64,000 bases of DNA from the human T2T-CHM13v2.0 reference genome, Homo sapiens: NCBI RefSeq assembly GCF_009914755.1, contig NC_060947.1; one strand, given 5' to 3'. Positions within the stretch are counted from its first letter, which is position 1. The number at the start of each line of letters is the position of its first letter. Position numbers and translations under genes: made by a program. The notes under the pieces were generated by a model that saw nothing but the letters and a program-made list of their open reading frames with translations, searched no databases and was not told the origin of the DNA. Below, in pieces: positions 25,819 through 26,899 of the stretch.

Positions 25819-25976
25819 TTATTTGCCCCCATACATTCGTTCAATGTCTTTGAGGTAATGGTTCCTCAGCTCCTTCCTTTTCAGTTTGAAAGCATCAGTT
25901 ACCAAACCAGTTTCAGGGGTCCATGGCTCTGGGCTTAATCGAACCTTGATTGGAATTTCAAATCGCTCCAATTTCA
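25819..25976 (-). CDS. ACSL4: ACSL4 last coding exon [55 protein letters not shown]
   Basis: cag|TG (phase 1); TAA at 25819-25821; conserved C-terminal KLKR region. Confidence 0.97.
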
Positions 25977-26704
25977 CTGAAATTAGAAGTGAAAGATGGG
26001 AGAAAAGGAGAGGGGGGGAAAGAGACGAGAAAGGAGTGGGGACGGGGAAAGAAGGGGAAGGAGAAGCAATTAATAAAATATGAGTTTTTCAGGATTTACC
26101 TAGATGATTCGGGTGTTGAATCACCAATCACCACAAACTTATTTAATGGTATACTAGATAGTTTATTAATGCTACCTCTACCTTACAATTTCATTTTATA
26201 TTTCTCAAAGTATACCTAAGTTGTTTCAGTTGGATAGTTTTAGTCTATGTGGTTATTAAAATATACATACATATACACATTATTTATACTCACACACACA
26301 CACATACACACACATCTTCCTCTTCAGAGACTTTATATTTGCCTGAGATGGTCTTTCTCAATAAAGTTGTGTGTCACTTCCATACTTTATCCATATGTCT
26401 GCTCAAATACCACCACCCCGGAGAGGACATCCCTGACCACTCATAACAAAAGAGAAGGGGGAGGAGCCAAGATGGCCAAATACGAACAGCTCTGGTCTAC
26501 AGCTCCCAGCCTGAGCGACACAGAAGACGGGTGATTTCTGCATTTCCATCTGAGGTACCAGGTTCATCTCACTAGGGAGTGCCAGACAGTGGGCGCAGGT
26601 CAGTGGGTGTGCGCACCATGCGCGAGCCGAAGCAGGGCGAGGCATTGCCTCACTCGGGAAGCACAAGGGGTCAGGGAGTTCCCTTTCCTAGTCAAAGAAA
26701 CGGG

Positions 26705-26899
26705 TCACCTGGAAAATCGGGTCACTCCCACCCAAATACTGTGCTTTTCCGACAGGCTTAAAAAACGGTGCACCAGGAGATTATAGCCCGCACCTGGCTC
26801 GGAGGGTCCTACGCCCACGGAGTCTCGCTGATTGCTAGCACAGCAGTCTGAGATCAAACTGCAAGGTGGCAGGGAGGCTGGGGGAGGGGCGCCCGCCAT
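26705..26899 (-). CDS. L1 antisense ORF0, 64 aa (slightly truncated at the C terminus)
   Basis: MAGAPPPASLPPCSLISDCCASNQRDSVGVGPSEP... matches the recalled primate L1 ORF0; ATG intact at 26899; expression not shown. Confidence 0.75.
   Translation of the reverse strand: MAGAPPPASLPPCSLISDCCASNQRDSVGVGPSEPGAGYNLLVHRFLSLSEKHSIWVGVTRFSR

What the first reader, a model, noticed from the sequence alone, without database searches (positions are those of the whole stretch)
25819..26899. L1 ORF0 splice donor is in frame with the last ACSL4 exon: predicted 87-aa ORF0-ACSL4 fusion from the L1 antisense promoter
Seen: the full-length L1 begins ~480 bp from the final ACSL4 acceptor and is antisense to the gene, so its antisense promoter would fire in the ACSL4 sense direction. 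The ORF0 ATG (26899) is intact. The donor CCAG|GTGCGG at 26794/26793 falls after 106 nt (phase 1), and the last ACSL4 exon starts TG AAA TTG (phase 1). Removing the 817-nt intron 25977-26793 gives [44 protein letters not shown]...[22 protein letters not shown] (87 aa), ending at the normal stop with the normal 3' UTR and no downstream junction to trigger NMD. Known: primate L1 5' UTRs carry an antisense promoter, and ORF0 donors splice to nearby exons to form fusions. Inference: when this L1 is demethylated (germline, ESC, tumours) it could produce a hominid-specific microprotein or neoantigen with the ACSL4 C-terminal tail. Nothing in the sequence shows that it is expressed.
Basis: partly seen in the sequence, partly recalled or inferred. 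Interest (0 to 1): 0.8.

Follow-up and report, generated by a model that had tools for sequence, protein, structure and literature searches.

The report
Unproven L1 ORF0–ACSL4 last-exon fusion
An old, broken LINE-1 element lies backwards just upstream of the last ACSL4 exon, so its antisense mini-gene (ORF0) could splice in frame onto that exon, but this is a one-in-three coincidence of a known kind, no evidence of expression was found, and the element is heavily methylated wherever it was measured.

Summary
The sequence observation is correct in every coordinate. A full-length L1 with target-site duplications (26458-32485, + strand) lies 481 nt from the last ACSL4 acceptor. Its ORF0 ATG (26899, minus strand) is intact. 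The first ORF0 donor, CAG|GTGCGG (exon end 26794), falls after 106 nt. Removing 25977-26793 (817 nt) gives an open 87-codon frame ending at the normal ACSL4 stop.

None of this is special to the locus. All 10 of 10 related L1 copies compared carry the same ATG and donor, 9 at nt 106 and one at nt 105. The frame match is therefore a 1-in-3 event.

I found no expression evidence:
- The element is annotated L1PA3 and is 80-99% CpG-methylated in 5 of 5 cell lines with data.
- The one ACSL4 L1-antisense EST in the 2015-EST catalogue comes from a different, upstream L1MC1.
- ACSL4 is absent from the held supplements of five other TE- or L1-transcript studies.

The 51-residue ACSL4 tail is only the end of the adenylation domain.

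Verdict: a valid but hypothetical candidate of a known kind, of low interest until a junction read is shown.

The parts
26458..32485 (+). Full-length (6028 bp) but coding-dead L1. A published table labels it L1PA3. Its 5'UTR is about 898 nt, the 'short' form without the ~125-nt extra segment seen in copy L003. ORF1 stops after 129 codons and ORF2 is split.
26446..26457 (.). 5' target-site duplication ACAAAAGAGAAG. The 3' copy is at 32486-32497.
   Evidence: the two 12-mers are identical
26857..27057 (-). Expected antisense-promoter region (L1 positions about 400-600). Its placement is inferred from the literature and is not shown for this copy.
   Evidence: ESTs map within the first 600 bp, the primary ASP lies at about 400 bp and a YY1 site at 448-453; the ORF0 A is at L1 position 442.
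26794..26899 (-). ORF0 start codon up to the first ORF0 donor (SD1, CAG|GTGCGG). It is 106 nt long, 35 codons plus 1 nt, and would be the coding part of the chimeric first exon.
26707..26709 (-). Second ORF0 donor (SD2, CAG|GTGACC), with its last exonic base at 26709, 191 nt from the ATG (phase 2). It is out of frame with the ACSL4 exon. A ~9-nt deletion peculiar to this copy lies just after it and ends the unspliced ORF0 at 64 codons.
25977..26793 (-). Hypothetical 817-nt intron: 336 nt of antisense L1 5'UTR plus 481 nt of unique ACSL4 intron. It contains the poly(A) hexamers AATAAA (26167) and ATTAAA (26147), followed by a GT-rich stretch.
25819..25976 (-). Coding part of the last ACSL4 exon (2 nt plus 51 codons plus the stop). 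It is preceded by a pyrimidine tract of about 90 nt. It encodes the extreme C-terminus of the adenylation domain.
   Evidence: hub annotation
23125..25818 (-). ACSL4 3'UTR, which any chimeric transcript would share.
   Evidence: hub annotation; (AATAAA at 23147)

Best explanation
This is a latent, so far hypothetical, cryptic first exon.

A decayed full-length L1PA3 inserted antisense into the last ACSL4 intron. It brought with it the standard L1PA antisense-strand package: an antisense promoter, the ORF0 start codon, and two donors at nt 106 and nt 191. Because the insertion landed 481 nt from a strong constitutive acceptor, an antisense-promoter transcript could splice from the first donor to the last ACSL4 exon. 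By a 1-in-3 coincidence that splice keeps the ACSL4 frame and gives an 87-residue product.

In the cells measured the L1 promoter is heavily methylated. This fits an intronic L1 that is co-transcribed with an expressed host gene. The locus is therefore normally silent, and the fusion is not a regular product.

Shown here:
- the anatomy, the frame and the family-wide nature of the signals;
- the methylation values;
- absence from the catalogues searched.

Inferred: that the antisense promoter of this copy is competent, and that it is silent in vivo.
For: - Anatomy and frame.
- The signals are generic: 10 of 10 copies have the ATG and the SD1 context CAG|GTGCGG, at nt 106 in 9 and nt 105 in one. 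The first 35 ORF0 residues are identical to the window copy in 6 of the 9 other copies.
- Methylation (Lanciano 2024 supplementary table, rows read): 2102Ep 0.867, MRC5 0.991, HEK293T 0.847, IMR90 0.945, HEK293 0.80 (144 of 180 CpG calls in 18 reads).
- The same paper says methylation of intragenic L1s follows host-gene transcription, and that hypomethylation alone is typically insufficient for L1 expression (passages).
- Criscione 2016 Table S1 (2015 spliced ESTs, 988 genes) has one ACSL4 row. It comes from an upstream L1MC1 and is flagged as not previously published, against a list that included the Denli ORF0 fusions.
- ACSL4 does not occur in the held supplements of Pinson 2022 (3 files), Garza 2023 (1 file), PMC10760525 (3 files), PMC12229592 (5 files) or PMC11846448 (6 files).
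- No paper pairs ACSL4 with ORF0 or with 'L1 antisense promoter' (0 papers each). The searches returned 2, 1 and 1 papers, none of them about this locus judging by title and abstract start.
Against: - The geometry is unusually favourable: a short 817-nt intron, the best-scoring donor in the stretch (7.9 of a maximum 12.6 bits), the best acceptor, no upstream AUG for any start site between 27289 and 26900, and a good Kozak context.
- Young L1s, including L1PA3, are hypomethylated and expressed in pluripotent cells: 2323 young L1 loci are expressed in hiPSC.
- No methylation value exists for H1 or for six other lines.
- The most relevant lists could not be read: the supplements of Adami 2025 and the Denli 2015 fusion table (paper not held).
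- Absence of a gene name from supplementary tables is weak negative evidence. No junction database was available.
Confidence: 0.55

Rival explanations
1. In hypomethylated states (pluripotent cells, placenta, germline, some tumours, DNMT-inhibitor treatment) the antisense promoter fires upstream of the ORF0 ATG. SD1 then splices to the last exon and the 87-residue ORF0-ACSL4 peptide is translated. It would be a rare, probably unstable microprotein or an HLA ligand.
For: - The frame is open, the stop lies in the last exon, and there is no upstream AUG.
- SD1 is the best donor and 25976 the best acceptor.
- ORF0 fusions are documented as a class: 57 of about 3200 loci, as summarised in Criscione 2016.
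- L1PA2 and L1PA3 antisense promoters act as alternative promoters for about 100 genes in hiPSC.
Against: - Methylation is 80-99% in 5 of 5 lines with data, including 2102Ep, where the paper says young families (L1HS, L1PA2 and partially L1PA3) are hypomethylated.
- The locus is not in any catalogue searched.
- Criscione places the primary antisense start at about L1 position 400, while the ORF0 A is at position 442 in this copy. Some transcripts would therefore lack the ATG.
- The ACSL4 part is only the last ~48 residues of an adenylation domain and has no Pfam match of its own, so a folded functional product is unlikely.
Confidence: 0.25
2. The antisense promoter can fire, but the products do not carry the in-frame fusion. 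Three outcomes are possible. Transcripts may run on unspliced and end at the intronic poly(A) signals or read into the last exon, encoding only this copy's 64-residue ORF0. They may use SD2 (phase 2), which gives ORF0 residues 1-63 plus six out-of-frame residues. Or they may start downstream of the ATG.
For: [quoted passage not shown]
- AATAAA at 26167 and ATTAAA at 26147 are followed by a GT-rich stretch.
- SD2 scores 7.1 against 7.9 for SD1.
- The primary antisense start is reported at about position 400.
Against: - U1-binding donors upstream of a poly(A) signal usually suppress it (established knowledge, recalled).
- The intron is short and the acceptor strong.
- The 2.9% figure comes from loci that mostly lack a nearby exon, so it understates splicing at this locus.
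Confidence: 0.17
3. The fusion is a selected, functional hominid-specific microprotein. For example, it might interfere with ACSL4 or use the basic C-terminal tail for localisation.
For: Only that the frame is open and that the tail holds a conserved Lys/Arg-rich segment which aligns to carboxylic acid reductase adenylation-domain ends.
Against: - The ORF0 part is identical to many other copies.
- The frame match is a 1-in-3 event.
- The element is decaying (26 CpG left in 898 nt, ORF1 and ORF2 broken) and is methylated.
- No conservation test was possible.
Confidence: 0.03

Closest known systems
L1 ORF0 and ORF0-exon fusion proteins (Denli et al. 2015, Cell). The paper is not held; it is known here through passages in Hancks & Kazazian 2016, Criscione 2016 and a 2026 review.
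   Same: - An antisense ORF in the 5'UTR of a young primate L1.
- Two internal splice donors.
- Potential to splice to a downstream host exon and extend the reading frame.
   Different: For this locus there is no transcript, ribosome or peptide evidence. ACSL4 was flagged 'not previously identified' in a cross-reference that included the Denli fusions. In this copy the unspliced ORF0 is cut to 64 residues by a private deletion.
L1 antisense-promoter chimeric transcripts (LCTs) such as L1-MET and L1-BCAS3 (Speek 2001 and Nigumann 2002 are recalled; Criscione 2016, Pinson 2022 and Lanciano 2024 were read in passages).
   Same: An intronic, antisense, full-length L1PA element acts as a possible alternative promoter for downstream host exons.
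   Different: Known cases are backed by ESTs or split reads and by unmethylated promoters. For L1-BCAS3 the L1PA2 is unmethylated, carries H3K4me3 and has spliced reads. Here the promoter is methylated and no read is known. Only the last exon lies downstream, so no functional ACSL4 isoform could result.
'Gene-breaking' by antisense intronic L1 (Wheelan et al. 2005). Recalled; the paper is not held.
   Same: An antisense L1 in an intron could in principle end upstream transcripts and start downstream ones.
   Different: The minus strand of this L1 has only 2 ATTAAA hexamers and no AATAAA. The downstream 'half gene' is a single exon. No transcript evidence was available for either half.

Membership tests
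L1 ORF0 locus | An ORF on the antisense strand of the 5'UTR of an L1PA1-8 element, starting near L1 position 450 with a good Kozak context. | tested here: met
   The ATG is at 26899, which is L1 position 442 of this copy, with G at -3 and G at +4. The element is labelled L1PA3.
L1 ORF0 locus | Two splice donors inside ORF0. | tested here: met
   CAG|GTGCGG at nt 106 and CAG|GTGACC at nt 191. Both are at the same positions in 9 of the 10 copies compared, and one base earlier in the tenth.
L1 ORF0 locus | Transcription from the antisense promoter and translation of ORF0. | not testable with these tools
   No RNA, CAGE, Ribo-seq or mass-spectrometry data were available. Promoter methylation of 0.80-0.99 in 5 lines argues against activity in those lines.
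ORF0-exon fusion / spliced L1 chimeric transcript | A host exon downstream on the same strand, with a frame-compatible acceptor. | tested here: met
   A phase-1 donor joins a phase-1 last exon. The frame is open for 87 codons.
ORF0-exon fusion / spliced L1 chimeric transcript | An observed junction (EST, split read or long read). | tested here: inconclusive
   The junction was not found in Criscione Table S1, whose only ACSL4 row comes from an L1MC1. It was also not found in five further sets of supplements. Junction databases, the Denli tables and the Adami supplements could not be read.
L1PA3 subfamily (short 5'UTR form) | Subfamily assignment, and absence of the ~129-bp 5'UTR segment. | tested here: met
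   The label L1PA3 comes from the Lanciano 2024 table. The 5'UTR is 898 nt and aligns end to end with copies of 894-906 nt. Copy L003 carries an extra ~125 nt, for 1033 nt in total. I made no diagnostic-site subfamily call myself.
Gene-breaking L1 | Upstream host transcripts polyadenylated inside the antisense L1. | not tested
   Only hexamers were counted: 2 ATTAAA on the minus strand inside the L1.

The most novel reading that the evidence does not exclude
In naive or primed pluripotent cells, placenta, or globally hypomethylated tumours, this L1PA3 antisense promoter escapes gene-body methylation and makes an ape-specific 87-residue ORF0-ACSL4 peptide. Its single locus-specific junction peptide is presented on HLA, or the peptide perturbs ACSL4-dependent lipid metabolism.
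Probability: 0.05. Interest if true: 0.45.

Novelty: new member of a known kind. Interest (0 to 1): 0.17.

Why it matters
If the junction were expressed, it would add one more lineage-restricted L1 ORF0 fusion. Its only unique epitope spans the splice junction, which is of some interest for tumour-antigen lists because ACSL4 is widely studied in ferroptosis (that context is recalled, not from a call). It would not alter ACSL4 enzyme function, since only the last 51 residues are included. As it stands, the finding shows how easily thousands of full-length L1PA elements generate formally in-frame predictions: the signals are identical across copies and the frame match is a 1-in-3 event. Such predictions need junction evidence before they deserve attention.

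Tried and rejected
- **Retrocopy test.** I searched the window's own genome with the first 477 nt of the last exon, looking for a processed copy that might carry ORF0 sequence upstream. There were only 2 matches: the locus itself and a 78%-identical exon on contig C2, which I take to be a paralogue's last exon. No retrocopy exists, so this gives no evidence either way.
- **Pfam on the two halves.** The 51-residue tail gave only a sub-threshold chance hit (Arm-DNA-bind_5, 16.2 bits against a cut-off of 22.6). ORF0 gave nothing.
- **Other ORF0 donors in the window.** The SD1 16-mer occurs once, even allowing up to 3 mismatches.
- **Papers not held.** Denli 2015, Speek 2001, Matlik 2006, Wheelan 2005 and Macia 2011. 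Their content is cited only through other papers or from recall.
- **Adami 2025 supplements.** Too large to read.
- **Folding the fusion.** Not attempted, because it is a joined sequence that the window does not encode letter for letter.
- **Splice-site scoring.** MaxEnt was not available. I used a 9-position log-odds matrix with recalled approximate human donor frequencies and a crude pyrimidine/YAG filter for acceptors. These scores rank sites only.

Full report
**1. Observation**

- A script confirmed an ATG at 26899 with G at -3 and G at +4.
- It confirmed 106 nt up to the donor CAG|GTGCGG, whose last exonic base is 26794.
- It confirmed the acceptor TTTCAG|TG at 25977/25976 and a 158-nt coding part, 25819-25976.
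- Joining the two pieces in silico gives 264 nt: 87 codons plus the normal ACSL4 stop, with a Val codon formed across the junction.
- The removed stretch, 25977-26793, is 817 nt.

**2. What the element is**

- The L1 runs from 26458 to 32485 (6028 bp) on the + strand. It is bounded by a perfect 12-bp target-site duplication at 26446-26457 and 32486-32497.
- It is full-length but dead. ORF1 stops after 129 codons, and ORF2 is split into pieces of 406 and 624 codons.
- Lanciano et al. 2024 list a full-length reference L1PA3 on the + strand with ACSL4 as closest gene and a length of 6026 bp (supplementary table rows). I take this to be the same element.
- Its 5'UTR is 898 nt. It aligns end to end at 93.6-96.0% identity with nine other copies from the same genome. 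One of these (L003) carries an extra ~125 nt, so the window copy is of the short form.
- 26 CpG remain in the 898 nt. The nine other copies have 20-36.

**3. The signals are generic**

A genome search with the ORF0 region gave 3343 candidates, of which 40 were scored and 10 fetched.

- All 10 of 10 copies have the ATG and the donor context CAG|GTGCGG. The donor is at nt 106 in 9 copies and at nt 105 in one.
- A second donor lies at nt 191 in 9 copies and at nt 190 in one.
- The 35 residues before the first donor are identical to the window copy in 6 of the 9 other copies.
- The phase-1 donor is therefore a property of the family. Its match to a phase-1 exon is a 1-in-3 event.
- One private feature of this copy is a ~9-nt deletion just after the second donor. 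It turns that donor into CAG|GTGACC and ends the unspliced ORF0 at 64 residues. Six of the other copies have 102, and the remaining three have 125, 71 and 29.

**4. Splicing potential**

Donors were scored with a 9-position log-odds matrix built from recalled approximate human donor frequencies. These scores rank sites only.

| Donor (last exonic base) | Score (bits) |
|---|---|
| First ORF0 donor (26794) | 7.9 |
| TAG\|GTAAAT in the unique intron (26100) | 7.2 |
| Second ORF0 donor (26709) | 7.1 |
| Theoretical maximum | 12.6 |

- The first donor is the best of the 8 sites at or above 5.5 bits between 27150 and 25977.
- Of 72 AG dinucleotides between 26793 and 25600, four pass a crude pyrimidine/YAG filter. 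The ACSL4 acceptor has the highest pyrimidine fraction, 0.80. It sits behind a visibly long pyrimidine tract.
- Use of the second donor would be out of frame and would end after six further codons (reading).
- The would-be intron contains AATAAA at 26167 and ATTAAA at 26147, followed by a GT-rich stretch. These could end unspliced transcripts.
- No ATG lies between 27289 and 26900 on the minus strand. ORF0 would therefore be the first AUG for any start site in that span.
- Criscione et al. place the primary antisense start at about L1 position 400 and a YY1 site at 448-453 (section read). The ORF0 A is at position 442 here. Starts near position 400 would miss the ATG, although ESTs are often 5'-incomplete.

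**5. Expression evidence**

None was found.

- *Full-text searches.*

| Search terms | Papers found |
|---|---|
| ORF0 + ACSL4 | 0 |
| 'L1 antisense promoter' + ACSL4 | 0 |
| ACSL4 + L1PA | 2 |
| ACSL4 + LINE-1 + 'chimeric transcript' | 1 |
| ACSL4 + 'antisense promoter' | 1 |

  The four papers found are unrelated to this locus, judging by title and abstract start.
- *EST catalogue.* Criscione 2016 Table S1 (2015 spliced ESTs, 988 genes) has one ACSL4 row. It is a testis EST whose source is an L1MC1 and whose span lies far upstream of the last exon. It is flagged as not previously published. That cross-reference was against 89 published transcripts, including the Denli ORF0 fusions.
- *Other supplements.* ACSL4 does not occur in the held supplements of five studies:
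  - Pinson 2022, brain and glioma, 3 files;
  - Garza 2023, brain, 1 file;
  - a long-read CAGE study of epigenetically treated cells, 3 files;
  - a chromatin-modifier-inhibitor study, 5 files;
  - a breast-cancer long-read study, 6 files.
- *Not readable.* The Adami 2025 hiPSC supplements and Denli 2015. These two may bear directly on the claim.

**6. Epigenetic state**

- Bs-ATLAS-seq values for this L1 are 0.867 (2102Ep), 0.991 (MRC5), 0.847 (HEK293T), 0.945 (IMR90) and 0.80 (HEK293; 144 of 180 CpG calls in 18 reads). The other 7 of 12 lines, including H1 and K562, have no value.
- The same paper reports that young families (L1HS, L1PA2 and partially L1PA3) are hypomethylated in 2102Ep (passage). 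This copy stays methylated there.
- It also reports that methylation of intragenic L1s follows host-gene transcription in most non-embryonic cells, and that only 61 of 379 L1HS loci become expressed after 5-aza (passages).
- Pinson 2022 found evidence of 5' splicing for 44 of 1509 L1 chimeric transcripts.
- On the other side, Adami 2025 report 2323 young L1 loci expressed in hiPSC and about 100 genes, a third of them coding, that depend on L1 promoters (passages). Pluripotent cells therefore remain the most likely place for this junction.

**7. The product**

- The ACSL4 part is 51 residues. It has no Pfam match of its own above cut-off.
- It aligns (E = 1.8e-4) to residues 595-642 of a 643-residue carboxylic acid reductase adenylation-domain chain, 6oz1. 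It is therefore only the extreme end of the C-terminal lobe of an adenylate-forming enzyme.
- Catalytic function of the fusion is therefore not expected (inference).
- ORF0 has no Pfam family.

**8. Verdict**

However, the finding is a formally valid prediction of a known kind, built from family-wide signals and a 1-in-3 frame match. The locus is methylated wherever it was measured, and none of the catalogues I could search lists it.

My estimates:
- About 0.55 that the locus is essentially silent and the fusion is not a regular product.
- About 0.25 that the in-frame junction is made in hypomethylated states.
- About 0.17 that antisense transcripts exist but are unspliced, spliced from the second donor, or lack the ATG.
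- About 0.03 that the product is functional.

A single query of a splice-junction compendium would settle most of this.

Noticed in passing
window 26690-26710 (minus strand): This L1 copy has a private ~9-nt deletion immediately after the second ORF0 donor. The other copies span 280 nt where this one spans 271. The deletion changes the donor from GTGCCG/GTGCCA/GTGCGT to GTGACC and creates a TGA that ends the unspliced ORF0 at 64 residues. Six of the nine other copies have 102.
   Followed up: partly
outside the window, upstream part of ACSL4 (Criscione 2016 Table S1 row): A different L1-antisense chimeric EST for ACSL4 exists (DB091758, testis, normal tissue). It starts in an old L1MC1 beyond the annotated gene start. 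ACSL4 therefore does have one catalogued L1-derived alternative start, but not from the element in this finding.
   Followed up: no
window 26147-26172 (minus strand): AATAAA and ATTAAA lie 20 nt apart and are followed by a GT-rich stretch, inside the last ACSL4 intron about 170-190 nt upstream of the last exon. This is a possible cryptic intronic polyadenylation site for ACSL4 or for L1 antisense transcripts.
   Followed up: no
window 25980-26075 (minus strand): An unusually long pyrimidine tract (about 90 nt, almost purely C/T) precedes the last ACSL4 acceptor. This suggests a distant branch point.
   Followed up: no
window 26290-26320: A short imperfect (TG)n/(TA)n microsatellite lies in the unique intron stretch between the L1 and the last exon.
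   Followed up: no
L012 (G000 contig C2:223424276-223424419): The only other genome match to the start of the last ACSL4 exon is a 144-nt stretch at 78% identity. It is probably the homologous last coding exon of a paralogue. No processed ACSL4 retrocopy covering this exon was found.
   Followed up: partly
window 27355-27744 and 28630-31911 (+ strand): L1 ORF1 is cut by a stop after 129 codons, and ORF2 is split into at least two long fragments. The element cannot retrotranspose on its own.
   Followed up: partly
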